This document shows positions 1 to 54,657 of a DNA stretch of 55,593 bases, in pieces (positions within the stretch are counted from its first letter, which is position 1; the number at the start of each line of letters is the position of its first letter). Source of the stretch: Candidatus Beckwithbacteria bacterium (GTDB lineage Bacteria; Patescibacteriota; Microgenomatia; UBA1400; CG1-02-47-37). The notes under the pieces were generated by a model. It was not told the DNA's origin. It did no database searches and saw nothing but the letters and a program-made list of their open reading frames with translations. Where the stretch lies: assembly GCA_043803225.1 (NCBI GenBank), contig JAZDKF010000047.1:1-55593 (forward strand), written 5' to 3'. The position numbers were made by a program, and so were the translations under genes.

Positions 1-99
1 CCTTGGCAAGACTGTCGGCGCCGGTCGTCCGGCGGCCGCGATGTCGCCCGAACTGTCGCAACTTCCTGTATCTGTAAGCTCTATGGTAGAATTAGCATA

Positions 100-135
100 G
101 CGTTCTTTGAAGTAAGTCCGAGCTTCGTTGTAAAC
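100..135 (-). pseudogene. Start-less fragment resembling the C-terminal tail of a Patescibacteria serine recombinase (VYNEARTYFKER)
   Basis: Minus-strand frame reads VYNEARTYFKER, preceded by an in-frame stop at 154-156 with no start codon, and stays open to the window edge. It has the same xRTYFK motif as 14344-14394. Family link is from recall. Confidence 0.4.
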
Positions 136-139
136 TCGC

Positions 140-757
140 TCACTTACTGATCGTTATTCTGGCTCCAGAAAGATTGGCAAGTTCACTACTGGATGATTTT
201 ATTTCAACCACATAAACATTATTACCGGAGTGAAGTTTAAAACTGGGCGAAGTTTTCCAAACAATAGAATTAGTATTATTATAAATTTCCGTTATCGACA
301 TAATCGCGCCAGTAGTTTTATTTTTTAATCTGGCCCAGGCTTCGCCGTTAACTATGGATAATCCGGCTTCAAAATAAGCAATAACATCGGCAGGATAGTC
401 ATTACTGTTAAGCCGGACTTCAACATTAGTGACAGTCCAGTCTGTCTGAGTCGTACTAGCCGAGCCTAAATAAACTATCTGCGGCTGGAAAGGGATTGAT
501 GGGGCTGGGGCAGGATTGACATAGGGTATTAATGAGGGTGATGACTGAAGGGTTGGATTTAATGACGGAGAAGGTTCAAGAGATAAAGAAGGTGTGGGAG
601 AAGGTAAATTTAAGTTGGTGACAATTTTTGATTCTTGCAGTGTTTTTAAAGCGGTAATTTTTTGATTGAGATTTTTCTGCCCTATTCCCAAACCAATTAT
701 TAGTAAAAAGTTAATAGCAAGAACTATTGAAATTATAATTTTAAATCGTTCCATCAA
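140..757 (-). CDS. Hypothetical membrane-anchored surface protein with Pro/Ser-rich linker
   Basis: N-terminal hydrophobic helix (IIISIVLAINFLLIIGLGIG), PSPTPS/PSPS linker and beta-rich C-terminal domain. TATACT -10 box just upstream on the minus strand. Confidence 0.75.
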   Translation of the reverse strand: MMERFKIIISIVLAINFLLIIGLGIGQKNLNQKITALKTLQESKIVTNLNLPSPTPSLSLEPSPSLNPTLQSSPSLIPYVNPAPAPSIPFQPQIVYLGSASTTQTDWTVTNVEVRLNSNDYPADVIAYFEAGLSIVNGEAWARLKNKTTGAIMSITEIYNNTNSIVWKTSPSFKLHSGNNVYVVEIKSSSSELANLSGARITISK

Positions 758-13214: not shown

Positions 13215-13290
13215 GGGCCGTTAGCTCAGTTGGTAGAGCGGATGCCTCTTAAGCATCATGTCACAGGTTCGAGTCCTGTACGGCTCACCA
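13215..13290 (+). tRNA. tRNA-Lys(CUU) with encoded CCA
   Basis: GGGCCGT/ACGGCTC-A-CCA; anticodon arm GATGC-CTCTTAA-GCATC. Confidence 0.95.
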
Positions 13291-13302
13291 TTTTGGAAAT
13301 CG
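13289..13302 (+). repeat. att-like core, copy 1
   Basis: CATTTTGGAAATCG, includes the last two bases of the tRNA CCA. Confidence 0.7.
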
Positions 13303-13420
13303 CAGAAAAGGTTGGGGCAGCGCTGGCTGCGCCCGCCTCCGCAGACAGCGCTGCAAAGGGTAAATCGAGGGTCGCCGACAGGCGACGCAAAGAAAAAGAA
13401 AGAAGAAAAACGCAAAAATT

Positions 13421-14230
13421 TTAATGTGCTTCTATATATTTTAACATTGGTGAAATCAAACTATTACAAACAACCTGTGTTTGTTTTTCCCCAGACTGTC
13501 TGAGCAATAACTGTCCCGCTAAAAGATCTGGCTTAGTAGATGCTAAACTTTGATGAAACCAATCGGCTATTCCTGTATTTTCCCTAACATCTTCAAGGGA
13601 AGAATGTGAAGATAAACCCACTGACGAAATAACCTCTTTGGGTACGTTAATAATTCCTCTTCTCCAATCTACTTCAAAATCTCTGACTGAATATACCCTG
13701 CCTTGGCCGAAAGAGAGAACTGGAATATCACCACTTCTCAAATTAGAATCAATTGCAAGCAGAGTAATATTCATCACCGGATCGAATGCATTATGATAAT
13801 ACTGTTCAATTTCTTCAGCCGGTAAAGCCCTTCTCTGGGAAGCCCGTTCACGATCAAAAATAATTGCGTCTATAGCTTTTACGAAATCTCTTCGTGGGTT
13901 GTCTTTTGGTTTCGCTTTTGACTCAAGAACGTCCAAAGAATAACGAAGCTGTCTGTCGATTCGCGAATTCGTTAATGAATTTGTTGCAATACGATGGATT
14001 AAATCTTGCGCATATGCGAGAGGGTCAACAATTCCTTGTGCATCTCCATCTAATAAATCATCCACAAACCTAACAGGATTGTAAGCTGTACGTAATACAC
14101 GGCTACGTTCAAATCCAAAGAATGATAAAAGATATTGCCCCGTAACCATTTTAATCGCACTTGGTCTTCTTTTAACAAAATCGATCGCTTCTTTTGCGGT
14201 AAGTATTTCTATTTCAATTTCTCTCTTCAT
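13421..14230 (-). CDS. Squalene/phytoene synthase family (head-to-head isoprenoid synthase-like) protein
   Basis: AY..VRFVDDLLDG first Asp-rich motif and RDFEVDWRRGIINVPKE second motif; TG-A-TAGAAT 8 nt before ATG 14230. Confidence 0.75.
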   Translation of the reverse strand: MKREIEIEILTAKEAIDFVKRRPSAIKMVTGQYLLSFFGFERSRVLRTAYNPVRFVDDLLDGDAQGIVDPLAYAQDLIHRIATNSLTNSRIDRQLRYSLDVLESKAKPKDNPRRDFVKAIDAIIFDRERASQRRALPAEEIEQYYHNAFDPVMNITLLAIDSNLRSGDIPVLSFGQGRVYSVRDFEVDWRRGIINVPKEVISSVGLSSHSSLEDVRENTGIADWFHQSLASTKPDLLAGQLLLRQSGEKQTQVVCNSLISPMLKYIEAH

Positions 14231-14394
14231 AATGTACAATTCTATCAATTAATTGCTGGCGTAGCCAGCAAATAAAGTCGCGCGCGTTGAAAATAAGCGT
14301 GGCCGCAGGCCGAGCTTTCAGATAATGCGGCGGCTGGGTGCGGTCAGCCGCCGCTACCTTTGAAATACGTTCGAATTTGTTTGAAAACGTTCAA

Positions 14395-14408
14395 CATTTT
14401 GGAAATCG
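14395..14408 (+). repeat. att-like core, copy 2
   Basis: CATTTTGGAAATCG, identical to 13289-13302, followed by similar AG-rich/GGGG sequence. Confidence 0.7.
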
Positions 14409-14479
14409 AAAGAGGATTGGGGGGAGTAAAGTTGTCTTAGGATATGCAAAAGTGGTATAGTGGGCCGGAAGGCGCATTT

Positions 14480-23250: not shown

Positions 23251-23287
23251 AAATAACAGCATACCATAATTGATAATTTTCGTTAAT

Positions 23288-23310
23288 CCTACAAGGAGAC
23301 TCCTTGTAGG
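23288..23310. repeat. REP-1 copy upstream of RAYT1
   Basis: CCTACAAGGAGACTCCTTGTAGG, perfect 11-1-11 palindrome. Confidence 0.9.
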
Positions 23311-23327
23311 TGTATAATTAACAAATA

Positions 23328-23966
23328 ATGCCTTCGAAAAACACGTTAAAACAATATATAGAGGATAGCTATTATCATATATATAATCGTGGAGTTAATA
23401 AGGAGCGGATTTTTTTAGATGATCAAGATTATAAAACCTTTCTTAGATACCTTAAAATGTATTTATCGTTATCTGACCTACAAGGAGACTCCTTGAAGGT
23501 AAAAGTAGCGCCCTCAAGACAGTTAAAAAATTACACTGATCAAATTAAGTTAATTGCTTATTGTTTGCTTCCTAATCACTTTCATTTATTAATCTGGCAG
23601 AATGAATTTGATAAAATTAATTTTTTTATGCGATCGTTAGCGACCAAATACGCAAGATATTTTAATCGTAAATATCATCGAGTTGGACCTGTTTTCCAAA
23701 GCGTTTATAAAGCTGTTCTTGTAGAAAGTGAGGATCAATTACTTTATTTAACCAAGTATATTCATCGCAATCCAATTGAATTATTACCTACGAGGAGTCT
23801 CCTTGTAGGTTACAAATACTCAAGCTATGGTAATTATTTGAATTTATTTAATCAAGTTTGGGTTAAACCATTAGATTTTATAAACAAATCTTATAAAACA
23901 TTTGTTGAAGAAACAGATGAACGTGACTTATTAACAATAAAGTCGGTGTTAATTGAAGAAATTTAG
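23328..23966 (+). CDS. REP-associated tyrosine transposase (RAYT, Y1/IS200-like)
   Basis: YYHIYNRG, AYCLLPNHFHLL (HUH), YIHRNP (catalytic Tyr), YSSY. Confidence 0.92.
   Translation: MPSKNTLKQYIEDSYYHIYNRGVNKERIFLDDQDYKTFLRYLKMYLSLSDLQGDSLKVKVAPSRQLKNYTDQIKLIAYCLLPNHFHLLIWQNEFDKINFFMRSLATKYARYFNRKYHRVGPVFQSVYKAVLVESEDQLLYLTKYIHRNPIELLPTRSLLVGYKYSSYGNYLNLFNQVWVKPLDFINKSYKTFVEETDERDLLTIKSVLIEEI
23477..23499. repeat. REP-1 copy inside RAYT1 CDS
   Basis: CCTACAAGGAGACTCCTTGAAGG. Confidence 0.85.
23787..23809. repeat. REP-1 copy inside RAYT1 CDS (reverse orientation)
   Basis: CCTACGAGGAGTCTCCTTGTAGG. Confidence 0.85.
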
Positions 23967-23989
23967 CCTGCAAGGAGACTCCTTGTAGG
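23967..23989. repeat. REP-1 copy abutting the RAYT1 stop codon
   Basis: CCTGCAAGGAGACTCCTTGTAGG. Confidence 0.85.
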
Positions 23990-23996
23990 CTGTTAT

Positions 23997-24677: not shown

Positions 24678-26718
24678 CTTTTATTTTAAGATCAACAATA
24701 TTGATTGAATCTGGGGTAATAATGGCGGGGTTACAATTAATTTCATCGATTTGAGGCAGATCTTCAACTAATTGGCAAAGATTTAGAATCATTTTATAGA
24801 CTTCAGTCAGATTAACCGGAGGCAGTCCCCGAGCGCCTTGCAGAATTAAACCGATTTTAATCTGAGAGAATAATTTTTTGATTAACTTTTGATTAATTGG
24901 TAAAAAGGCATGGATGATATCCTGATAAATTTCTGTATAAATTCCACCCGAGCCTAAGGTTAAAAGAGGCGGAAAGCCAGCATAACGTTTTAAACCAATA
25001 AACAGTTCGTGACCGGCATGAAGCTGAGGTTGAAGCAAAATAGTTTTAAAGTTAGTTTTAAGTTTATTAAAAGCCGATTTGACTGATGAAAGCGAGTTTA
25101 AGTTTAAGTAGAGACCTTGTTTTTCAGTTCGGTGTAAAGCTTCGGCTGGATCGGCTTTTAAAACAGCCGGAAAACCAATGTTTTTAAGTTGATGCGGAAG
25201 TTGATTTATTTCAACTATTTTAGTTGAGACTAATGGCAAATGATAAGTTGAGGCCAGTTTAGTAATTTGATGCCAAGTACATTGGCCTGAAGGCAGCGAA
25301 TCAAATAAAGCTAGGGTTTCCCGGGAAGATTTTAGCCGAATCGATTTTTTAACCGGGTAGTGAAGATTTTTCCGGCGTAAATGCCAATAATGGTAAAGCG
25401 TACTTAAGTAATTAACAGCTTTTTGTGGAAAGTCAATAGTAGCAATATGGCGTTTTTGAAGAATATCCTTGGCTTGATCATTAACATCTCCGCCTAAAAA
25501 GGAAACAACCACAGGTTTATTAAGGTGTTTAAATTGTTTAACAATAATTTCGGCAGTTAATTCAAGCTGAGTATTAGTTTGTGGAGTAAGAATAATTAAA
25601 AAGGCGTCTTTGAGCTGATCCTGAACAATAACGCTTAGAGCTTTTTGAAATCGATCGGCCATGGCATCTCCAATCAGATCAATGGGATTGTTTATTTGAG
25701 CTTGAGGTACGGCAGTTTTTAATTTCTCGGCGGTGCTTAAGGACAGCGGGGTGATTTCCAACTGAGATTGAAAAGCCTGATCACTGGCTAAAATTCCCGG
25801 ACCGCCGGCATTAGTAATAATTACCAAATCATGATCAATTAGTTTTGGCTCTAAACTGAAAATTTCCAGCAAGTCGGTAAAGTTTTCTAAATTTTCAGCC
25901 TGAATACAGCCAGATTGATCCAGAGCGGTTTTAATAATTTCAATTTGCGGGCTTAAAGCGGCAGTATGGCTCAAAGCAGCTTTTTTACCAACTTGAGTTT
26001 GGCCGCCAAAAATAACAATAAGCGGTTTTTTCAGAGTGACTTGGCTCGCTGTCTTCATGAATTTTTTGCCGTCAGCAAATGACTCAAGATAAAGACCAAT
26101 GACTTTAGTATTCGGATCTTGACTTAGATAGGTTAAAAAATCAGTTTCAGTCAATCCAGCCCGGTTACCCAAAGAAACAAAAAGAGAAAAACCTAAATTT
26201 TCCGATTTAGCCCAGTCAAACAGAAAAGAACCAATCGCCCCTGACTGGGAGATTAGACCGATATTTCCTGAAGGCGGAGCAGTTTTAGCAAAAGTAATAT
26301 CTAATTGTTTTCGGGGATTAGCAAAACCTAAAACATTCGGGCCAAGCAAATTTATACCGGCTTTTTGACAGGTTTTTTGCAAAGTCAATTCCAATTCGTG
26401 TCCGATTTTCCCGGTTTCAGAAAATCCGGCAGAGATGATCACCAGAGATTTAACTTTTTTAGCTACGGCTTGAGTAGCGATTTGATTAACAATCTGAGCT
26501 GGGACAGCAACAATGACTAAGTCAACAGCACCGGGAATGTCTAAAAGAGTCGGATAGGCTTTCAAACCTTGAATTAAATACTCATGAGGATTAACCGGAA
26601 ATAATTTTAAATTAGAAGTTTTCAGCTTGCTCAGTAATTGATAACCGAGTTTTTTCGGATTGGCTGAAGCACCGACAAGTGCGATAGTTTTTGGTGCAAA
26701 GAGCGAGGTCAAGTCCAT
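24646..26718 (-). CDS. ADP-forming acetate/acyl-CoA ligase (CoA-binding, ligase and ATP-grasp domains fused)
   Basis: ALVGAS, ISAGFSE, LGPN, SQSGA, GN.AG, SHTAAL (phospho-His), TNAGGPG, NPIDLIGDA, EINCNP. Confidence 0.9.
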   Translation of the reverse strand: MDLTSLFAPKTIALVGASANPKKLGYQLLSKLKTSNLKLFPVNPHEYLIQGLKAYPTLLDIPGAVDLVIVAVPAQIVNQIATQAVAKKVKSLVIISAGFSETGKIGHELELTLQKTCQKAGINLLGPNVLGFANPRKQLDITFAKTAPPSGNIGLISQSGAIGSFLFDWAKSENLGFSLFVSLGNRAGLTETDFLTYLSQDPNTKVIGLYLESFADGKKFMKTASQVTLKKPLIVIFGGQTQVGKKAALSHTAALSPQIEIIKTALDQSGCIQAENLENFTDLLEIFSLEPKLIDHDLVIITNAGGPGILASDQAFQSQLEITPLSLSTAEKLKTAVPQAQINNPIDLIGDAMADRFQKALSVIVQDQLKDAFLIILTPQTNTQLELTAEIIVKQFKHLNKPVVVSFLGGDVNDQAKDILQKRHIATIDFPQKAVNYLSTLYHYWHLRRKNLHYPVKKSIRLKSSRETLALFDSLPSGQCTWHQITKLASTYHLPLVSTKIVEINQLPHQLKNIGFPAVLKADPAEALHRTEKQGLYLNLNSLSSVKSAFNKLKTNFKTILLQPQLHAGHELFIGLKRYAGFPPLLTLGSGGIYTEIYQDIIHAFLPINQKLIKKLFSQIKIGLILQGARGLPPVNLTEVYKMILNLCQLVEDLPQIDEINCNPAIITPDSINIVDLKIKVSEIKSPLHL

Positions 26719-26721
26719 GAT

Positions 26722-28344
26722 TTAAATTAAACTTTTTCCGATCATTTGGCTAGGTTTAGGAATTTCCAGTAATTTTAATATAGTCGGAGCAATATCAGCC
26801 AAAATTCCCTGATTAAGATTGATTGACTGATTTTGGAACTTGGAGTTGATAATAATACAGGGAACCGGATTGGCGGAGTGTTCGGTATCAATTTCACCGG
26901 ACTGAAGATTGATAACTTCTTCAACATTGCCATGATCGGCAGTTATAATGGCGATCCCGTCTAAAGCGAGAATCACCGGAATCACTTGAGATAAAAAGAT
27001 ATCCACTGCTTCGCATGCCTTAATACTGGCAGTTAAATTACCGGTATGTCCTACCATATCCGGACAAGCCAAATTAATTAAAATAAATTGATAGATTCGA
27101 TCTTTCAATTTGGCGATTAAACTTTTCGACAACTGAGGAGTTGACATTTCCGGTTTTAGGTCATAAGTAGAAATGTTAGGTGAAGGAATTATCTGCCAGT
27201 CTTCTTCAGCAAAAGGTTGTTCTCGAAGACCGTTGAAATAGTAAGTCACAAATCGTTCTTTTTCACTTTCAGCCATTTTTAATTGTCTTAAATTGGCTTC
27301 ACTGATGATTCGGGACAAAGGCAGGTCAACATGAACCGGAGGCATCATGACTAAACAAGGTAAATTTGCCTGATATTCAGTCATAGTAACAAAACATAAG
27401 TTTTTCAAGACTTTTTGACGTTTAAAAACTGGATTTGTGGTGGCTTTGGTGGGAAGGTGGCTGTGAAGATAACGATCGGCAAACGGATCAAAAGCCAATT
27501 GATTAGCATTGGTTTCAAAGTCCGGCATAACAAAAGCCTTGGTTAATTGACGCGGCCGGTCAACCCTGAAGTTAAAAAAAATGACGGCATCATTATCTTG
27601 GATTAAGGCAAGCGGAGTATTGCTTTCATCAGTGATATTAGTCGGTTCAATAAACTCATCGGATTTTTGCCGGATATAGGATTTTTGAATTGCCTGGTTT
27701 AGGGAGGTAGTTTTTAAACCTGTGCCTAAGGTTAAACAATCATAAGCTTTTTGAGTTCTTTCCCACCGAAAATCCCGATCCAAGGCGTAATACCGACCTA
27801 TAACTGAAGCAATTACGCCTAAATTAATAGTCTCTAATAGTGACTGAATTTGGCTTAAATAGATTTGGGAAGTAGTCGGCGGTGAATCACGGCCGTCAGT
27901 AAAAAGGTGAAGAGCCAATCTTTGAATATTTTTTTGCTTGGCGAATTTAATCAGAGCAAACAAATGTTCATTATTGGCATGAACTCCGCCGGAACCAATT
28001 AAACCAATTAAATGCAAGGTCGAATGGTTAGTCAGTGAATGATTTATAGCCTGATTCAGGCTGGGATTTAGAAAAAAACTACCGTCAGCAATAGCCATAT
28101 TGATCCGAGGTAAATCCTGAAAGACTATTTGACCAGCGCCTAAGTTTATATGACCGACTTCAGTATTTCCGTCTTCTCCGTGAGGCAAACCAACTGCCTC
28201 GCCTGAAGCAGAGAGTTTTGTTGAGGGATAGGCGGATAAAAGTTGGCGGTAGAATGGCAAGCGTGCCTGAGTAATGGCATTACCAGGTCCGGGCGGAGCA
28301 ATTCCCCAACCATCCAAAATAATTAAAACTACTGGCTGGGTCAT
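26722..28344 (-). CDS. gpmI: 2,3-bisphosphoglycerate-independent phosphoglycerate mutase
   Basis: ILDGWG, GNTEVGH, DGRDSPP, GRYYALDRD, NFRVDR, PDMVGHTG, TADHGN. Confidence 0.95.
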   Translation of the reverse strand: MTQPVVLIILDGWGIAPPGPGNAITQARLPFYRQLLSAYPSTKLSASGEAVGLPHGEDGNTEVGHINLGAGQIVFQDLPRINMAIADGSFFLNPSLNQAINHSLTNHSTLHLIGLIGSGGVHANNEHLFALIKFAKQKNIQRLALHLFTDGRDSPPTTSQIYLSQIQSLLETINLGVIASVIGRYYALDRDFRWERTQKAYDCLTLGTGLKTTSLNQAIQKSYIRQKSDEFIEPTNITDESNTPLALIQDNDAVIFFNFRVDRPRQLTKAFVMPDFETNANQLAFDPFADRYLHSHLPTKATTNPVFKRQKVLKNLCFVTMTEYQANLPCLVMMPPVHVDLPLSRIISEANLRQLKMAESEKERFVTYYFNGLREQPFAEEDWQIIPSPNISTYDLKPEMSTPQLSKSLIAKLKDRIYQFILINLACPDMVGHTGNLTASIKACEAVDIFLSQVIPVILALDGIAIITADHGNVEEVINLQSGEIDTEHSANPVPCIIINSKFQNQSINLNQGILADIAPTILKLLEIPKPSQMIGKSLI

Positions 28345-29600
28345 ACTAATTTTAGCTCCTGTTCGATTTCCAGAAGCCGATTATATTTAACAATTCTTTC
28401 CCCTCTGGCTGGAGCACCAAACTTAGTAAAATCGGCGCCAATACCCACGGCTAAATCAGCAATAAAAGTATCGTTTGTCTCACCTGATCGATGAGAAACA
28501 ATAATTTTAAATTGATGTTCTCGGCAATACTTTATTACCTCAATTGTTTCTGAGAGCGTGCCGATTTGATTAGGCTTGATTAAAATTGCATTACAAGCTT
28601 TGGTTTCGATTGCTTTTTTAACCCGTTCCTGGTTAGTAGAAAGAAGATCATCGCCGACGATTAAAGTATTAGCACCTAAAACTTCAGTCAGTTTGGTCCA
28701 GCCTAGCCAAGCATCCTGATCTAAGCCGTCTTCCAAAGAAAAAAGATGATACTCCTGGTTTAGCTGTTGATAGTAAGTAATCAGTTCATCCTGGCTAAAA
28801 GGTTGAGCCCGATCTTTAATTTGATACTGTCCGTGTTGAAAAAAATGATCGGCAGAAACATCTAAGCCTAAAAAGACATCAGTAGTAAATTTATACTGGG
28901 TGGCTTGGATTGCTTCTAAGATGACTTCTAAGGCATCTAAGTTGGTAAATAAATCAGGAGCAAAGCCGCCTTCATCGCCAACTGAGTGAATTGCCTTCCG
29001 GTGGATAAGAACGTTTTTCAAATGGTTGTAAACTTCGATGCCAATTTGTAAGGATTGATGGTAGGGAAATCGAGTTGAAGGAATTAAATGGAATTCCTGA
29101 AAGTCCAGATTGCCGGCGCCATGGGCACCGCCATTAATAATATTAAAAGTCGGGCTGGGCATTTTAGATAAATTTTTGATCAAAGAATATTTCTGATGCA
29201 GATATTGGTAAACAGGCAGTTGAAAGTAGGCAGCAGCAGCCTTAAGGTTGGCGATCGAAATTGAAAGAATGGAATTAGCCCCATATTTACTTTTATTCGA
29301 AGTAGCATCAAGATCAATTAAGAGTTGATCCAGTTTCGTCTGTTGAGCCGGATCCAAACCAATTAGTCTTGGGCCGAGAACTTGATTAACCAGGTTAACT
29401 GCTTTTAAAACGCCTAGACCATTGAAACGGGAAGGATCATTATCACGGAGCTCTACCGCTTCGTATTTACTGCTTGAAGCACCGGAAGGAATGCTGGTTT
29501 GGCCAAAATGACCGGAATCAAGCCAAAGAGTAGTTTCAATCGTCGGATTGCCTCGAGAATCTAAAATTTCCCGGGCATTAATTTTCGTGATTTTAGCCAT
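28341..29600 (-). CDS. eno: Enolase
   Basis: DSRGNPT, GDEGGF, VGDDL, IKPNQIG, SHRSGET, KYNRLL. Confidence 0.97.
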   Translation of the reverse strand: MAKITKINAREILDSRGNPTIETTLWLDSGHFGQTSIPSGASSSKYEAVELRDNDPSRFNGLGVLKAVNLVNQVLGPRLIGLDPAQQTKLDQLLIDLDATSNKSKYGANSILSISIANLKAAAAYFQLPVYQYLHQKYSLIKNLSKMPSPTFNIINGGAHGAGNLDFQEFHLIPSTRFPYHQSLQIGIEVYNHLKNVLIHRKAIHSVGDEGGFAPDLFTNLDALEVILEAIQATQYKFTTDVFLGLDVSADHFFQHGQYQIKDRAQPFSQDELITYYQQLNQEYHLFSLEDGLDQDAWLGWTKLTEVLGANTLIVGDDLLSTNQERVKKAIETKACNAILIKPNQIGTLSETIEVIKYCREHQFKIIVSHRSGETNDTFIADLAVGIGADFTKFGAPARGERIVKYNRLLEIEQELKLV

Positions 29601-31899
29601 TTATAAGTTTTTTCTCAGCCTGGTAAATTATGTTTCTGGTTTGGTCAATCATATCGGGAGTAACGGATATACTGGTAATACCCCACTTAACTAGTTTTTC
29701 AGTTAAATCAGGATAAAGTGAAGGCGCCTGACCGCAGATAGAACAAGTAACTTTTTTCTTTAGACAGATTTTTACCGTAGATTCGATTAAGGATAAAACC
29801 GCCGGATTAAGTTCGTCATACTCACTGGCAACTTCGCTATTATCCCGGTCGACCCCTAAAGTTAACATGGTTAAATCATTGGAGCCGATAGAAACACCAT
29901 CAATCCCCTGGTCAATAAAATCTTCAAGTAAGATCACATTGGCCGGAATCTCCACCATGAGCCAAAGTTTAAAGTTAGCTGATCTGATTAAACCATTAGA
30001 GGAAATAATTTTTTTAACCTTTTGCAGTTCAGCAATATTCCTGACAAAAGGCAGCATTAACCAGAGATTTTTTAGCCCAAGTTTATCCCGGGAATATTTT
30101 AGAGCCTGAAGTTCCAGATTAAAAACTGGTTCATCAACTAAGTAACGATAAGCGCCTCTAAATCCGAGCATAGGGTTTGGTTCAATTGGCTCATAGGCTT
30201 TGCCGCCAATTAAGTTGGCATATTCATTAGTTTTAAAATCAGTTGCCCGATAGACCACCGGACGAGGATAAAAGGCCTTGGCGAATTGAGTTAAACCGGA
30301 AGTGAGCTGATCGATAAATTGTTGTTGTTTTTTATCAACAATCATTTTTTTAGGATGGGTACCGATTTGGGCAATCATAAACTCGGCTCGGAGCAAGCCA
30401 ACGCCATCAACGTTTTTTTGGCTGATAATTGAAGCCAGATCAGGTTCACCCAAATTAACATAAAGCTTAGTAGCAGTGATTAAAGTATCAGGCTGAAGCT
30501 TTGAAGGAGAAATTTTTGAGATTTTGGCTGAAGCTTTTGATTCAGGTTTAATTATTTTTTCTCTTAAAATAATCCCGCCGCTAAAAACTTCTCCGGTTTG
30601 ACCGTTAATAGTGATCACCGAGCCAGTTTTTAGTACTTTGGTAGCGTTACCGGTGCCGACAATACAGGGAATACCTAGTTCCCGGGAGACGATAGCCGCA
30701 TGAGAAGTTTGTCCGCCTTTATTAGTGACTATGGCTGAAGCTTTTTTCATCGCCGGAACAAAGTCTGGAGTTGTCATGTCCGTTACTAAAATCTCTCCGC
30801 TTATTAACTTATTAATTTCTTTAGCTGATGAAAGCTGTTTTACGTGGCCGGCAATAATCCCCGGACTGGCTGGTTCACCTTTAAGAATGAGTTTAAGTTT
30901 GGATAAGTTAACCGGAGCTTCTTTTAGAGGATTTAAATTAAGCGTGGTTATCGGCCTGGACTGAACAATATAAATTTTATTATTGGCAATTGCCCACTCT
31001 ATATCTTGAGGGAAAAAATAATGCTGTTGAATTTTTTGGCCTAGTTTGGCTAAATCAAGAATTTGTTCGTCAATTAATTTAGCTTGCTGTTTTTTGTTTT
31101 TTGGAAGTTTAATTTCTTTGTTTTTATCTTTTACCCAAGTTAACTGCTTATTTTGCTGATTGACTTGTTTTTGTAAGATTTTCCAAGAAAGCTTTTGGAT
31201 AAGATAGTGATCAGGAGTATAAGCGCCTTGAACTATTTTTTCACCCAAGCCCCAAATGGCTTCAATCACAATTTGATTTTTATTGTTAGTTACCGGGTTG
31301 ACAGTAAACATAATGCCGGAAATTTCACTCTGAACCATTTTTTGAACCGGTACAGCAATACCTACTTGAAAGTGATCAAAACCTTTTTCCTGACGGTAAA
31401 AAATTGCTCGAGGTTCAAAAAGAGACGCCCAACAAGCACGAATGCTTTGAATCAGATTAGCTTCACCTTGAATATTTAAAAAAGTTTCCTGCTGACCAGC
31501 AAAGGAGGCATCAGGCAGATCTTCAGCAGTAGCTGAGGATCGGGCGGCGACTAAACAGTGGCGATTATTTAAACCGAGTTGAAGATAGTTTTTGATAATT
31601 TCAGTTGCTAGTTCTTGAGGAATATCAGCCTGGAGAATAAGTTTCTTAATTTTAGATGAGGCTTGATTCAAAGATTGAATATCTTTGGGATCAATTTGAT
31701 TAAGAATAGCTTTAATTATCGGTTTAAGATGGTTGGTTTCGATAACCTGATAGTAAGCCTGAGAAGTGACGATAAAACCAGGTGGAATCGGAAAACCGGC
31801 ATTGATCATCTCACCTAAGTTAGCGCCTTTACCACCAACCAGAGCAATGTCCGATTTACCGACCTGATTAAAATTAACCAATAAACTATGCTGATTCAT
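29593..31899 (-). CDS. ppsA: Phosphoenolpyruvate synthase
   Basis: VGGKGANLGEM, RSSATAEDL, QDIEW, TSHAAIVSRE (phospho-His), ENPMLG-like EPNPMLGFRG, SIGSNDL. Confidence 0.95.
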   Translation of the reverse strand: MNQHSLLVNFNQVGKSDIALVGGKGANLGEMINAGFPIPPGFIVTSQAYYQVIETNHLKPIIKAILNQIDPKDIQSLNQASSKIKKLILQADIPQELATEIIKNYLQLGLNNRHCLVAARSSATAEDLPDASFAGQQETFLNIQGEANLIQSIRACWASLFEPRAIFYRQEKGFDHFQVGIAVPVQKMVQSEISGIMFTVNPVTNNKNQIVIEAIWGLGEKIVQGAYTPDHYLIQKLSWKILQKQVNQQNKQLTWVKDKNKEIKLPKNKKQQAKLIDEQILDLAKLGQKIQQHYFFPQDIEWAIANNKIYIVQSRPITTLNLNPLKEAPVNLSKLKLILKGEPASPGIIAGHVKQLSSAKEINKLISGEILVTDMTTPDFVPAMKKASAIVTNKGGQTSHAAIVSRELGIPCIVGTGNATKVLKTGSVITINGQTGEVFSGGIILREKIIKPESKASAKISKISPSKLQPDTLITATKLYVNLGEPDLASIISQKNVDGVGLLRAEFMIAQIGTHPKKMIVDKKQQQFIDQLTSGLTQFAKAFYPRPVVYRATDFKTNEYANLIGGKAYEPIEPNPMLGFRGAYRYLVDEPVFNLELQALKYSRDKLGLKNLWLMLPFVRNIAELQKVKKIISSNGLIRSANFKLWLMVEIPANVILLEDFIDQGIDGVSIGSNDLTMLTLGVDRDNSEVASEYDELNPAVLSLIESTVKICLKKKVTCSICGQAPSLYPDLTEKLVKWGITSISVTPDMIDQTRNIIYQAEKKLING

Positions 31900-42414: not shown

Positions 42415-42422
42415 AAATGAAG

Positions 42423-42494
<72 letters not shown>

Positions 42495-42504
42495 TGAAGA
42501 AATG

Positions 42505-42577
42505 TGAGCCGTACAGGACTTGAACCTGTGACCAATTGCTTAAAAGGCAACTGCTCTACCAACTGAGCTAACGGCCC
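42505..42577 (-). tRNA. tRNA-Lys(UUU)
   Basis: GGGCCGT/ACGGCTC acceptor, anticodon loop CTTTTAA. Confidence 0.95.
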
Positions 42578-48048: not shown

Positions 48049-48090
48049 TACCTCATCTTATTTTTTTTACCTTTATTTTTCAACTCTAAA

Positions 48091-48113
48091 CCTACAGGGT
48101 CGGACCTTGTAGG
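48091..48113. repeat. REP-2 copy upstream of RAYT2
   Basis: CCTACAGGGTCGGACCTTGTAGG. Confidence 0.9.
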
Positions 48114-48128
48114 TATATAATAAGATTT

Positions 48129-48779
48129 ATGCCGGCGAAGAACGTAGTTAAAGAATTTTATCCTGACGCATATTATCATATTTATAATCGAGGCGTAGCT
48201 AAACAGACTATTTTTATTGATGAACAAGATTATAAATCCTTTCTTTCTTATCTTAAAATTTATCTTTCCTCAATCGATAAATCCATAAAAGTCTCCCCTT
48301 CCAGAAAATTAAAAAATTATTTTCAGAAACTACGCTTGTTGGCTTATTGTCTTATGCCAAACCATTTTCATTTGTTTATTTGGCAAGAGAATAAAAATTC
48401 AATTAGTGAATTTATGCAATCGATTTTAACCAAGTATTCCATGTATTTTAATAAAAAATACAAACGAATCGGCCCTGTTTTCCAAGGTAAATATAAAGCA
48501 GTAAGAATCGTGTCTGAAAATCAGTTTACTTATTTATCAAAGTATCTTCATCGCAACCCTTTTCAAATTCTGCCTACAGGGTCGGACCTTGAAGGTTACA
48601 AATACTCAAGTTATCAAAATTATCTGAGAAAATTTAGCCAATCTTGGTTAGATATAAATGAGATTTTAAATTATTTTTCTAAAACTAAAACGTTTAATTC
48701 TTATAAAAACTTTGTTGAAGAAATTGATGAGACTGATTTACTAAGAATAAAAAACTTGGTCCTTGATTTAGATTTCTAA
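48129..48779 (+). CDS. REP-associated tyrosine transposase (RAYT) 2
   Basis: YYHIYNRG, AYCLMPNHFHLF, YLHRNP, YSSY. Confidence 0.92.
   Translation: MPAKNVVKEFYPDAYYHIYNRGVAKQTIFIDEQDYKSFLSYLKIYLSSIDKSIKVSPSRKLKNYFQKLRLLAYCLMPNHFHLFIWQENKNSISEFMQSILTKYSMYFNKKYKRIGPVFQGKYKAVRIVSENQFTYLSKYLHRNPFQILPTGSDLEGYKYSSYQNYLRKFSQSWLDINEILNYFSKTKTFNSYKNFVEEIDETDLLRIKNLVLDLDF
48573..48595. repeat. REP-2 copy inside RAYT2 CDS
   Basis: CCTACAGGGTCGGACCTTGAAGG. Confidence 0.85.
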
Positions 48780-49342
48780 CCTACAGGGTCGGACCCTGTA
48801 GGTTGGTGTAGGTTGTAAAGCAGAAAATTATAAACATCTTTTAAAACTTTTAATTCCTGCTGTTTTTGGTTTAGCCAGGCCTCTTTACCTCCACGTTTAT
48901 CAGGACTAAAAACTAATGCCTGCAATCCTTCCCTAGCAGCAGTAACTTGCCCTTGTGAAGCAAAGCAGCCGACTTCAACCCAAGGCTCGATATTGTCTTC
49001 ATTGACAATCGCATGAGCTATTATAAATGACCAAGGAAAATTGTTTCTTTCTAATCTCAAGGTAATTGTTCTGGCAACATCATCTTCAGATATGGGCGAG
49101 CAGGCAAAATAAAATCTGGTTATTTCTTCTGGCTGAAAGGTAAATTCAGGTTGAAAAACCCGTTTAAGATTTTCCGGCATTCTGTTCCAATCTATCAGAT
49201 CTTCGTTTGTACTTAATTCCACTAGCCCATCTGTTATTTTACCGAGTCCAGAAAAAACTTGCTTGACTTCTTGGACAATAGACTCCCTACCAGCGCTTAT
49301 CTCTTGATCCGACAATTGTTTTTCTACGAAAACAGACCCCAT
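48776..49342 (-). CDS. Hypothetical protein
   Basis: 188 aa ORF with AAGGA SD; last codons encoded by REP-2. Confidence 0.7.
   Translation of the reverse strand: MGSVFVEKQLSDQEISAGRESIVQEVKQVFSGLGKITDGLVELSTNEDLIDWNRMPENLKRVFQPEFTFQPEEITRFYFACSPISEDDVARTITLRLERNNFPWSFIIAHAIVNEDNIEPWVEVGCFASQGQVTAAREGLQALVFSPDKRGGKEAWLNQKQQELKVLKDVYNFLLYNLHQPTGSDPVG
48780..48802. repeat. REP-2 copy abutting the RAYT2 stop codon
   Basis: CCTACAGGGTCGGACCCTGTAGG, perfect 11-1-11 palindrome. Confidence 0.9.
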
Positions 49343-54153: not shown

Positions 54154-54657
54154 ATGCTAAAAGAATTTTTAAAGACATTGCGGCTTAACGAACAAAAAAT
54201 CAGCATGCTTTTAGGGGCAGTGGTTGTGGTAATTGTGGGAGTGTTAATTTATAACTACTTTACCGGCATTAACCGTCAACCGGAAGTGGCTCAATCCACA
54301 GAAGAGCAACCATTGGTTAAAATCCACAAGGTAGCCAAAGGTGAGTCTTTATGGCAAATCAGCCTGAAGTACTACAACAATGGTTATAAATGGGCGGAAA
54401 TCGCCAAGGATAATAATTTGGTTAATCCTGACCTGATCGAAGTCGGCCAGGAGTTAATTGTTCCTGAATTAGAAGAAACACCGATGACCATCTCGACCTC
54501 TGAATATCTGGTAGTTAAAGGCGATAACCTTTGGAAGATCGCGGTCCGTGCTTATGCAGACGGCTATCAATGGGTGAAAATCTGGGAAGCCAACAAGGCA
54601 AATATTCCCAACCCGGACCTGATCGAAGTCGGAACAAAATTGGTATTGCCAAGATAA
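54154..54657 (+). CDS. Membrane-anchored protein with two LysM domains
   Basis: TM helix, HKVAKGESLWQIS..YY..G.KW..IA..N...NPDLIEVGQ.L twice; AAAGGAGG SD before ATG 54154. Confidence 0.92.
   Translation: MLKEFLKTLRLNEQKISMLLGAVVVVIVGVLIYNYFTGINRQPEVAQSTEEQPLVKIHKVAKGESLWQISLKYYNNGYKWAEIAKDNNLVNPDLIEVGQELIVPELEETPMTISTSEYLVVKGDNLWKIAVRAYADGYQWVKIWEANKANIPNPDLIEVGTKLVLPR

What the first reader, a model, noticed from the sequence alone, without database searches (positions are those of the whole stretch)
13289..14430. tRNA-Lys-integrated element whose att site appears to split the recombinase C-terminus
Seen: identical 14-mer CATTTTGGAAATCG at 13289-13302 (overlapping the tRNA CCA) and at 14395-14408. 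On the minus strand the proximal end reads LDLPFAALSAEAGAASAAPTFSAISKM (13369-13289) and runs on into antisense tRNA (VSRTGLEPVT-stop). The distal end reads, from the same ISKM core, LNVFKQIRTYFKGSGG-stop (14394-14344). Joining the two repeats by excision would fuse them into one continuous peptide. From recall, that peptide resembles the C-terminus of large serine recombinases common in Patescibacteria (..PF..L...low-complexity...xRTYF). Inference: attP lies inside the recombinase gene, so integration swaps its C-terminal tail, a possible built-in directionality switch. Known analogues are the split SSV1-type archaeal integrases and attP-in-repressor mycobacteriophages. The recombinase body has been deleted here, leaving only cargo. 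A matching tail relic at 100-135 suggests a recurrent system.
Basis: partly seen in the sequence, partly recalled or inferred. Interest (0 to 1): 0.82.

Follow-up and report, generated by a model that had tools for sequence, protein, structure and literature searches.

The report
Recombinase-less cassette of tail-swapping integrase element
Next to a tRNA-Lys gene lies a one-gene, recombinase-less cassette of a widespread and apparently undescribed family of tiny mobile elements in Microgenomates (CPR) bacteria, whose serine recombinase carries its attachment site inside its own gene, so the protein's last ~15 residues change when the element integrates.

Summary
The 14-mer repeat and both bottom-strand peptides are real.

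About 90 related loci show that window 13285-14424 is a recombinase-less, one-gene cassette. It belongs to a family of small elements of Microgenomates-type CPR bacteria that are moved by a large serine recombinase (LSR). These elements insert at the TCAC at the 3' end of many different tRNA genes.

In complete relatives the LSR ORF runs through a conserved GC hairpin and across the crossover point. Integrated copies therefore end in antisense-tRNA read-through. Other copies end in a conserved tail (..NVFxxIRT[YH]FK..stop) encoded by the element's other end. The codons of that tail vary mostly at third positions, so it is a selected peptide.

Three corrections:
- The true shared core is only TCAC.
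- The 14-mer is the start of two copies of the element's P' arm. The right junction is an attP-type junction with a mutated core, like the internal junctions of tandem cassette arrays.
- The same LSR-less cassette occurs at another tRNA, so it is a mobile unit and not only a local deletion.

A regulatory role for the tail swap is untested. I found no description of this system in the searchable literature.

The parts
13215..13290 (+). tRNA-Lys(ctt). This is the host (B-type) half of attL. The last CA of its CCA comes from the element.
   Evidence: ARAGORN and Rfam. Unoccupied tRNAs of the same window end ..TCAC followed by host sequence, with no CCA encoded.
13285..13288 (.). TCAC, the only sequence shared by tRNA ends, B-arm ends, attL, attR and attP. 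The crossover must lie inside it.
   Evidence: Junction table of ~90 sites. In L110, attL is TCAC|TA.., attP is TCAC|TA.. and attR is TCAC|CAA+tRNA-Lys.
13289..13316 (+). Left copy of the element's P' arm (CATTTTGGAAATCGCAGAAAAGGTTGGG). It contains 14-mer copy 1. On the bottom strand it encodes ..APTFSAISKM.
   Evidence: The same arm family lies between every occupied tRNA and hairpin A, and in every contiguous B|core|A site.
13317..13359 (+). Hairpin A (GCAGCGCTGGCTGCG / CGCAGACAGCGCTGC, then AAAGG).
   Evidence: Inverted repeat I7. Exact 23-mer found in 48 genome loci. It sits a constant 26-29 nt from the tRNA end, and diverged subfamilies have different stems.
13360..13401 (+). Remainder of the inverted-repeat unit, including the small hairpin GTCGCCGACAGGCGAC (13371-13386). 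In recombinase-bearing copies its bottom strand encodes ..RRLSA..
   Evidence: Alignment to attP modules. Extent of the ~105-nt inverted repeats.
13402..13421 (+). U motif GAAGAAAAACGCAAAAATTT, the conserved leader that precedes the recombinase start codon in complete elements and flanks the attP module as an inverted pair.
13421..14230 (-). Cargo gene of 269 aa (ATG at 14230), a weak squalene/phytoene-synthase-like protein with an invariant VDDxLDGD motif.
   Evidence: Pfam SQS_PSY at E 4e-4, below the curated cut-off. 43 homologues, all CPR. Invariant residues. No hit in PADLOC or NCBIfam and none of note in PHROGs or PDB.
14231..14275 (-). Cargo upstream region with hairpin TTAATTGCTGGC/GCCAGCAAATAA and TGATAGAAT, which I read as an extended -10 box. 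It is conserved with the cargo in other elements.
   Evidence: Inverted repeat I18. The same sequence lies upstream of the cargo in L095, L098 and L110. The promoter reading is inference.
14270..14357 (+). GC-rich module of the right end, with hairpin GCGGCGGCTG/CAGCCGCCGC (within 14316-14365). It holds the stop codon of the tail (TCA at 14344-14346, read on the bottom strand).
   Evidence: nhmmer B profile hit 14270-14397, E 5e-31. Inverted repeat I3. Alignment.
14344..14394 (-). Relic coding sequence of the recombinase's native C-terminal tail, LNVFKQIRTYFKGSGG*.
   Evidence: The same tail is encoded by 60+ B copies. It terminates full-length recombinases P0134, P0137, P0187, P0196 and P0224. 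The RTYFK codons vary at third positions.
14358..14393 (+). B arm (CTTTGAAATACGTTCGAATTTGTTTGAAAACGTTCA), the element-side (P-type) half-site.
   Evidence: Exact 19-mer found in 41 genome loci. Map.
14391..14396 (.). Degenerate core TCAACA. Almost all other B copies have TCAC[C/A/T]A.
   Evidence: The only exceptions are the window, L045 and L098.
14397..14424 (+). Second P' arm (TTTTGGAAATCGAAAGAGGATTGGGGGG), a different lineage from the left copy, with no hairpin A after it. Together with the B arm it forms an attP-type junction like the internal junctions of cassette arrays.
   Evidence: same variant as L087 and L076. (only the P' part matches the A profile). Arrays in L029 and L095.
88..141 (+). 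Probable right end (a B-like arm ending ..CGCTCAC) of another element that lies left of the window. Its bottom strand reads ERVYNEARTYFKE.
   Evidence: Codon comparison with L099's diverged tail RLYNVTRTHF. Not detected by nhmmer, so this part is tentative.

Best explanation
Window 13285-14424 is a non-autonomous, single-gene cassette. It belongs to a family of very small integrative elements of Microgenomates-type CPR bacteria that are moved by a large serine recombinase (LSR).

How the family works:
- The element's attachment site (attP) has three parts: a B arm, the core TCAC, and a P' arm followed by a GC hairpin.
- The LSR recombines attP with the TCAC at the 3' end of a tRNA gene. Lys, Glu, Val, Leu and Gln tRNAs are used.
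- This gives attL (tRNA|TCAC|P'-hairpin) and attR (B|TCAC|host).
- attP lies inside the 3' end of the LSR ORF. With an intact attP the protein ends ..IS..V-NVFxxIRT[YH]FK..stop, a tail encoded by the B arm.
- After integration the ORF instead leaves through attL into antisense tRNA and ends in an arbitrary tail.
- In complete elements a second, inverted attP copy lies upstream of the LSR gene. The gene is therefore bracketed by ~105-bp inverted repeats and is found in both orientations.

The window:
- The left junction is attL plus the leader motif U.
- The cargo is a 269-aa SQS/PSY-like gene with its own upstream region.
- The right junction is the B arm joined, through a mutated core (TCAA), to a second and different P' arm.
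- That right junction is the kind seen between neighbouring cassettes of tandem arrays.
- The 14-mer repeat is the conserved start of the two P' arms.

Shown: the anatomy, the family, the two tail isoforms, and selection on the tail.
Inferred: the recombination chemistry, mobilisation of LSR-less cassettes in trans, how arrays grow, and any regulatory consequence of the tail swap.
For: - Both ends are conserved, multi-copy and lineage-wide: 41 and 48 genome loci hold exact matches.
- Recurrent layouts were mapped in ~90 loci.
- Junction sequences define the arms and the TCAC core.
- The window's virtual junction is collinear with contiguous attP modules.
- The recombinase in relatives is a true LSR (Pfam). 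Its nearest solved relative is SPbeta SprA.
- LSR ORFs end in antisense tRNA in nearly all integrated copies.
- RT[YHF]F-tailed full-length LSRs exist, in contexts L099-L102 and L126.
- The tail codons have entropy 0.90/0.74/3.50 at codon positions 1/2/3, and 631 synonymous against 305 nonsynonymous pairwise codon differences.
- The 104-107-nt inverted repeats are nearly identical in 7 of 9 composites.
- LSR-less cassettes with diverse cargo are common.
- The same cargo with the same end junctions occurs at tRNA-Glu in L095, in L098, and inside an LSR-bearing element in L110.
- Tandem arrays have B|core|P' internal junctions (L029, L095).
- The window has no LSR.
- The motifs are nearly absent from viral contigs.
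Against: - No reads were available, so no circular junction or empty site was seen for this locus. Both searches for relatives of the flanking genes failed to give one.
- The window's right core is mutated and is not a normal attR, so this copy may be immobile.
- Contigs carrying the RTYFK-tailed LSR could in principle be assembler joins across the 105-nt inverted repeat. Three points argue against this: L101's record name indicates k=127, longer than the repeat; in L099 either join gives a B-type tail; and the tail shows codon-level selection.
- Recombination of attP with a hybrid site, which array growth would need, is not a known LSR reaction.
- Only one RTYFK-form copy was found in GTDB representative genomes with a strict pattern.
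Confidence: 0.85

Rival explanations
1. The tail exchange is only a by-product of packing attP against the end of the recombinase gene in a minimal element. Both protein forms behave alike and nothing is regulated by it.
For: The integrated-form tails are arbitrary read-through of whichever tRNA is used, 10-90 aa long. Integrated LSR genes stay intact and highly conserved. The hairpin-encoded segment upstream of the tail changes freely in peptide sequence between subfamilies.
Against: R-T-[YHF]-F-K is kept at the protein level while third codon positions drift. A stop codon follows within 2-4 codons in nearly all B copies. That points to a selected function for the native tail, which the integrated form lacks.
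Confidence: 0.35
2. The system is mainly a DNA-inversion switch. The recombinase flips its own gene between the ~105-bp inverted repeats, and the 'elements' are fixed chromosomal loci rather than mobile DNA.
For: Near-identical inverted repeats flank the LSR. Both orientations occur relative to cargo and attR: L014-type versus L100, L102 and L126.
Against: The same unit sits at at least ten different tRNA genes with unrelated cargo. The same cargo cassette is at tRNA-Lys(ctt) here and at tRNA-Glu(ttc) in L095. attR junctions go straight into unrelated host DNA. LSR sequences are 80-91% identical across different candidate phyla. Inversion may well occur, but in addition to transposition between sites.
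Confidence: 0.1
3. The 269-aa gene is an ordinary host gene that happens to lie between relics of two unrelated insertion events, so there is no cassette.
For: The two P' arms belong to different sequence lineages. Homologues of the gene also occur with no recognisable element ends (L001, L111-L125).
Against: The end-to-cargo junctions on both sides are the same in the window, L095, L098 and L110, although the flanking tRNAs and host genes differ. These are B'GC'-hairpin-TGATAGAAT-ATG upstream and ..CACATTAAAATTTTTGCGTTTTTC downstream.
Confidence: 0.04
4. The repeat is a chance match and the peptides are meaningless translations of GC-rich terminator hairpins.
For: About one exact 14-mer repeat within 2 kb is expected per window by chance. 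The Ala-rich peptide is indeed dictated by a hairpin.
Against: Only 7 of 1000 simulations place such a repeat at a tRNA end. All the comparative evidence above argues against chance.
Confidence: 0.01

Closest known systems
Phage and mobile-element large serine integrases (phiC31, Bxb1, A118, SPbeta SprA)
   Same: The domain set is the same (Resolvase, Recombinase, zinc ribbon with coiled coil). The att sites are short and simple with a very short shared core. The hybrid attL/attR products are the same kind.
   Different: attP lies inside the recombinase's own ORF. The target is the 3' end of many tRNA genes. The elements hold only two or three genes and no conserved accessory (RDF-like) gene. 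A second inverted attP lies upstream of the gene. LSR-less cassettes and tandem arrays exist. The motifs are nearly absent from viral contigs.
Archaeal 'suicidal' SSV1/pTN3/pT26-2-type integrases (PMC8371274)
   Same: The recombination site lies inside the integrase gene, so integration changes the gene. tRNA genes are the targets.
   Different: Those are tyrosine recombinases, and the gene is split into two inactive halves. The review states they are found only in archaea. Here a bacterial serine recombinase exchanges only its last ~15 codons and keeps an intact ORF.
Integration-dependent immunity of BPs/Brujita-type mycobacteriophages (PMC3694055)
   Same: attP lies inside an ORF, so free and integrated genomes express proteins with different C-termini. 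There, integration removes a C-terminal degradation tag.
   Different: There the affected gene is the repressor and the integrase is a tyrosine recombinase. Here the affected gene is the recombinase itself, and no tag function has been shown.
Integrons
   Same: Single-gene cassettes of unrelated function each carry a recombination site, and they are stacked in arrays next to a fixed site (L029, L095).
   Different: There is no IntI tyrosine recombinase, no attI and no folded single-stranded attC. The anchor is a tRNA gene. Arrays seen so far are short (two or three cassettes). Cassettes bring their own upstream regions.
Integrase-RDF fusion proteins (engineered; PMC5737554)
   Same: Those fusions show that changing what is attached to the C-terminus of a serine integrase can reverse its preferred direction.
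   Different: That was an artificial fusion to a whole RDF. Here a natural exchange of a 15-residue tail occurs, and its effect is unknown.
Clostridial large-resolvase transposons (Tn4451 TnpX, Tn5397 TndX). Comparison from my own knowledge, not tested here.
   Same: They are small elements moved by a large serine recombinase through a circular intermediate.
   Different: Their ends are not inside the recombinase ORF and they do not target tRNA ends.

Membership tests
Large serine recombinase integrative element | The recombinase has a Resolvase catalytic domain, a Recombinase domain and a zinc ribbon | tested here: met
   Met in relatives: L014 ORF matches PF00239 (3e-20), PF07508 (2e-13) and PF13408 (3e-8), and P0137 aligns to SPbeta SprA residues 16-462. 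The window copy has no recombinase, so it is a non-autonomous derivative.
Large serine recombinase integrative element | Short attP/attB sites with a minimal shared core, giving hybrid attL and attR | tested here: met
   The four junction types share only TCAC. L110 shows attL, attP and attR of one element. The window's virtual junction matches attP.
Large serine recombinase integrative element | Excision depends on a separate recombination directionality factor | tested here: inconclusive
   No gene other than the LSR is conserved among the elements. A host-encoded or unrecognised factor cannot be excluded.
Large serine recombinase integrative element | Demonstrated recombination activity | not testable with these tools
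   This needs an in vivo or in vitro assay.
Suicidal (SSV-type) integrases | The recombination site lies inside the integrase gene | tested here: met
Suicidal (SSV-type) integrases | [quoted passage not shown] | tested here: not met
   This is a serine recombinase. Only the last ~15 codons are exchanged, and the integrated ORFs remain 500-540 aa.
Integration-dependent immunity systems | attP lies inside the repressor ORF, and integration removes a degradation tag | tested here: not met
   The affected gene is the recombinase and the elements carry no repressor. Whether the tail acts as a tag was not tested.
Integron | IntI tyrosine recombinase with attI and attC sites | tested here: not met
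   The only recombinase is an LSR. The sites are double-strand B|TCAC|P' sites.
Integron | Arrays of single-gene cassettes of unrelated function | tested here: met
   L029 has three cassettes and L095 has two. Cargo functions are diverse.
tRNA-targeting genomic island (classical) | A long direct repeat of the tRNA 3' part lies at the distal end | tested here: not met
   Only TCAC is shared with the tRNA. The window's 14-18-nt repeat is element P' arm, not tRNA.
Known RNA families | A match to an Rfam covariance model for the conserved ends | tested here: not met
   Only tRNAs reach the threshold.

The most novel reading that the evidence does not exclude
The recombinase rewrites its own C-terminus each time it acts. 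With attP intact it carries the selected RT[YH]FK tail, and after integration it carries tRNA-antisense read-through. The two forms differ in direction preference or stability. A two-gene element would then control integration versus excision (or self-inversion) without any directionality factor. The same enzyme builds integron-like arrays of single-gene cassettes at tRNA genes, which would be a serine-recombinase counterpart of the integron in CPR bacteria.
Probability: 0.3. Interest if true: 0.9.

Novelty: new variant of a known kind. Interest (0 to 1): 0.78.

Why it matters
- Large serine recombinases are leading tools for inserting large DNA. Their main practical limit is that direction is set by a separate factor. 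A natural enzyme whose own C-terminus is exchanged by the reaction it catalyses would offer a one-protein route to direction control, and the idea can be tested directly.
- A review states that recombinases with the att site inside their own gene occur only in archaea and only among tyrosine recombinases (PMC8371274). This family would be a bacterial, serine-recombinase case.
- The family gives a mechanism for gene gain in the small, reduced genomes of CPR bacteria: one-gene cassettes of metabolic, transport and surface functions docked at tRNA genes.
- It supplies dozens of natural attP/attB pairs with a four-base core.

Tried and rejected
- Rfam, at gathering threshold and at permissive E-value: only tRNAs matched, so the conserved ends are not a known RNA family.
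- PADLOC, NCBIfam, PHROGs and PDB sequence search for the cargo: nothing useful. The cargo stays 'weak SQS/PSY-like'.
- Single-protein search for the cargo in representative genomes: nothing found.
- Empty-site search through the flanking genes failed. The thiamin pyrophosphokinase found only L006, whose locus is itself occupied and rearranged. The CARDB protein found nothing in metagenomes.
- IS200/IS605-like element with subterminal hairpins: considered and dropped once the recombinase was seen.
- B arm as a degraded tRNA 3' half: considered and dropped, because the spacing and stems do not fit.
- Viral collection: 3 hits for one motif and 0 for the other, so a prophage origin is unlikely.
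- Structure prediction of the recombinase tail: not run. Only about six sequences cover the tail, and the tool reports no contacts.
- Seven literature searches found no description of this system (an eighth failed). Subscription journals are not covered.
Full report
OBSERVATION

The 14-mer CATTTTGGAAATCG occurs exactly twice in the window, at 13289-13302 and 14395-14408. The repeat extends to 17/18 (TCAcCATTTTGGAAATCG). tRNA-Lys(ctt) ends at 13290. Between the copies lies a single gene on the bottom strand, 13421-14230, 269 aa.

By itself such a repeat is weak evidence. About one exact 14-mer direct repeat within 2 kb is expected per shuffled window. A repeat with one copy at a tRNA 3' end arose in only 7 of 1000 simulations.

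WHAT THE ENDS ARE

A related contig (L006) gave the first clue. Downstream of its tRNA-Lys(ctt) it has a nearly identical GC hairpin, then a different gene, then the same right-end sequence.

Exact searches of one genome per species found the right-end motif (B: CTTTGAAATACGTTCGAAT) in 41 loci and the hairpin motif (A: CTCCGCAGACAGCGCTGCAAAGG) in 48 loci. The record titles name Gottesman-, Woese-, Ames-, Roizman-, Davies-, Beckwith-, Shapiro- and Collierbacteria and WWE3. Several loci come from the same assembly. Some titles read 'uncultured Gammaproteobacteria'; these are probably mislabelled bins, which I could not verify.

In many loci B and A are contiguous, with a start-to-start spacing of 85 nt. 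That is exactly what results from joining the window's two ends at the repeat (37+48). The window's virtual junction aligns with no gap at the join to such contiguous sites, at 81% identity to L099, 79% to L049 and 76% to L014. Rfam knows neither end.

THE RECOMBINASE

In L014 a 524-aa ORF lies between two inverted copies of the hairpin unit. It has Resolvase, Recombinase and Zn_ribbon_recom domains. A homologue aligns to SPbeta SprA over residues 5-416. Copies 80-91% identical occur in about 25 of the fetched loci. More than 7,900 homologues with E below 1e-30 exist in the protein collection.

The C-terminus is the reverse translation of hairpin A and of the 26 nt between it and the tRNA (..RRLSANLNFAFAALSAEGGAASAAPTDSSISLLV). 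The ORF then continues into antisense tRNA (..SPEGFEPST..). All but three of the ~35 LSR 3' ends that could be read in the genomic loci do this, across Lys, Glu, Val, Leu and Gln tRNAs. This includes relatives only ~50% identical.

THE SITES

Notation used below:
- c: the core TCAC.
- P': the ~26-nt element arm next to the core.
- A: the conserved GC hairpin unit.
- U: the leader motif GAAGAAAAACGCAAAAATTT.
- B: the element's other arm.
- GC: the GC-rich module beside B.
- A prime after a letter marks the reverse orientation.

Comparing about 90 junctions gives these rules:
- The 26 nt between tRNA and hairpin (xATTTTGGAAATCGAAAGnGGnTTGGGG and variants) belong to the element. This is the P' arm.
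- Contiguous sites read ..GAAAACGTTCAC|[C/A/T]A|P'-hairpin. This is attP.
- Distal ends normally read ..GAAAACGTTCAC|host. This is attR.
- tRNA-side junctions read tRNA..TCAC|P'-hairpin. This is attL.
- Only TCAC is common to all four, so the crossover lies within it.

L110 shows all three sites of one element. There the element is inserted between a tRNA-Glu(ttc), whose CCA is followed by one base, and a tRNA-Lys(ttt).

Unoccupied tRNAs in this window end ..TCAC followed by host sequence. The CA that completes the CCA at 13289-13290 is therefore element sequence.

TWO TAIL ISOFORMS

The bottom strand of the B arm encodes [VL]N[VA][FY]x[QK]IRT[YHF]FK, then 2-4 residues, then a stop, in 60+ copies.

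Of the 120 best homologues, 71 are full length (480 aa or more) and could be anchored by a simple pattern rule at the peptide encoded by the P' arm. Their tails fall into three groups:
- 53 end in antisense-tRNA-like tails.
- 6 end in the B-encoded tail: P0134, P0137, P0176, P0187, P0196 and P0224, each 512-515 aa.
- 12 end otherwise.

L126 adds one more B-tailed copy.

Across 32 distinct B sequences the five RTYFK codons have summed entropy 0.90/0.74/3.50 at codon positions 1/2/3. Pairwise codon differences there are 631 synonymous against 305 nonsynonymous. Diverged copies show the same pattern. The window's 100-135 relic reads CGG ACT TAC TTC, and L099 reads CGA ACA CAT TTT. The tail is therefore a selected peptide, and the form ending in it is the native protein.

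In contrast, the hairpin-encoded segment keeps its stem-loop while its stem sequence and peptide change between subfamilies. Examples are L088, L027, L026/L031 and L099's second recombinase. The constraint there is on nucleic-acid structure.

ARCHITECTURE OF COMPLETE ELEMENTS

The recurrent layout, written in tRNA orientation, is:

tRNA | c | P'A | <-LSR | U' | A'P' | c' | B'GC' | U | cargo | GC B | c | host

The LSR gene is thus flanked by an inverted duplication of core + P' + hairpin. The repeat is 104-107 nt long and nearly identical within 7 of 9 loci.

This layout is what integration would produce from a circle that holds two inverted attP modules, if the copy inside the LSR 3' end is the one used. 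L101 is consistent with such a circle of about 3.4 kb: both contig ends fall in the attP copies, and the record name indicates k=127, longer than the repeat. The circle itself is inferred, not observed.

The opposite orientation of the LSR segment, with the RTYFK tail, occurs on contigs that run on into host DNA. L102 and L126 show this, and L099 shows it within an array that holds two recombinases. Inversion therefore probably occurs as well, or else integration through the other attP copy.

No gene other than the LSR is conserved. Cargo includes an APH-type kinase, a methyltransferase/GT2 fusion, a Glycos_transf_3 enzyme, an MFS transporter, an aldo-keto reductase, a creatininase, a LamG protein and proteins of unknown function.

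RECOMBINASE-LESS CASSETTES AND ARRAYS

Many loci have the layout tRNA | c | P'A | U | cargo | GC B | c | host, with no LSR (L018, L089, L028, L006, L013 and others). The window belongs to this class.

The window's cargo family appears in the same cassette elsewhere:
- At tRNA-Glu(ttc) in L095, at 82% protein identity.
- Next to a B arm in L098.
- Inside an LSR-bearing element in L109/L110.

In all of these the B'GC'-to-cargo junction is the same as in the window, and the cargo-to-U' junction is shared by L095 and L110, and in diverged form by L098. The cassette is therefore a unit that has moved between tRNA genes.

L029 carries three cassettes in tandem and L095 carries two. Their internal junctions are B|c|P' with a decayed or missing hairpin.

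The window's right junction is of this kind: B | TCAACA | TTTTGGAAATCGAAAGAGGATTGGGG. Right after it comes the promoter-like site of the CARDB gene. Its P' arm is a different variant from the left one. Its core carries a C-to-A change seen in almost no other copy. The 14-mer repeat is therefore the conserved start of two P' arms of different origin. It is not a target duplication, and this copy may no longer be mobile.

MECHANISM AND ITS LIMITS

Shown by sequence:
- the site anatomy;
- the recombinase family;
- the overlap of ORF and attP;
- the two tail isoforms;
- selection on the native tail;
- the inverted repeats and both orientations;
- LSR-less cassettes and arrays.

Inferred:
- The LSR recombines B|TCAC|P' with tRNA..TCAC.
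- LSR-less cassettes are moved in trans.
- Arrays grow by recombination of an incoming attP with a resident hybrid site. This reaction is not known for LSRs.
- The tail matters for direction or stability.

Precedents make a tail effect plausible. Integrase-RDF C-terminal fusions reverse direction (PMC5737554). In BPs-type phages, integration removes a C-terminal degradation tag from the repressor (PMC3694055). Nothing here tests it. I put the chance that the tail swap has any regulatory consequence at roughly one half, and the chance that it controls direction at about 0.3.

NOVELTY

Seven full-text searches found no description of this system. A 2021 review states that recombinases carrying the site in their own gene occur only in archaea, and those are tyrosine recombinases that are split in two (PMC8371274). 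This is an LSR integrative element, a known kind, with four unusual features:
- attP inside the ORF, with tail exchange;
- tRNA-end targeting by a serine recombinase;
- a self-flanking inverted attP;
- cassette arrays.

VERDICT

The window copy itself is a recombinase-less and possibly immobilised cassette, but it led to a family that deserves experimental study.

Noticed in passing
window 13317-13354; L088, L027, L026, L031, L099 (2560-2610): The GC hairpin sits a constant ~26 nt from the tRNA end. It keeps its stem-loop (loop CCCGCCTC-like) while the stem sequence and the encoded peptide change between subfamilies. Its function is unknown; it could be a terminator, a tRNA 3' processing signal, or an accessory recombination structure.
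   Followed up: partly
P0136 (123 member sequences), P0193, P0171, P0057; L071 4586-4725: A third class of recombinase tails (..SQLSQNWNSLLTYFERVYY.., ..NRVSRVWNPFFESLIRVY..) is neither tRNA antisense nor RTYFK. It may mark another B-arm family or a non-tRNA target.
   Followed up: no
L099 2467-7545: One chromosomal array holds two different recombinases. The second (478 aa) has its own hairpin type but the same B arm. Restriction-modification genes follow the array.
   Followed up: partly
L110 3530-3815; L014 5133-5260; L099 5640-5940: The attP module is itself bracketed by inverted copies of the U motif (AAATTTTTGCGTTTTTCTT ... AAGAAAAACGCAAAAATTT). Cargo genes occur in either orientation, which suggests a second level of invertible segments.
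   Followed up: partly
window 42422-42577 and 13285-13290: tRNA genes of this genome do not encode CCA (they end ..TCAC followed by host sequence). The occupied tRNA-Lys(ctt) appears to have CCA only because the element supplies CA. In other loci integration leaves CAA or CTA instead.
   Followed up: partly
L053 4114-4215: tRNA-Val is followed directly by a short reversed P' piece, the core and a reversed B arm, then U, cargo and B. This looks like a composite that has lost its recombinase segment.
   Followed up: no
window 13421-14230 and alignment A1: The cargo family has an invariant VDDxLDGD motif and further invariant Asp/Arg/Asn residues, consistent with a class I isoprenoid-synthase fold. 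It has no solved or named relative. In L097 a homologue lies beside tRNA-Ile/tRNA-Ala and a LAGLIDADG gene.
   Followed up: partly
window 23287-23990, 26599-28515, 30524-30745, 48088-48795, 54429-54630: Nine other exact direct repeats of 14 nt or more within 2 kb were found in the window. They are probably repeated protein domains. None was examined.
   Followed up: no
L103-L105 (IMG/VR contigs): Three viral-collection contigs hold the B motif and none holds the hairpin motif. Their contexts were not read.
   Followed up: no
L006, L020, L026, L027 and other record titles: Several contigs that carry these CPR-type elements are titled 'uncultured Gammaproteobacteria' or 'Pseudomonadales'. This is likely a binning or labelling error in those assemblies.
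   Followed up: no
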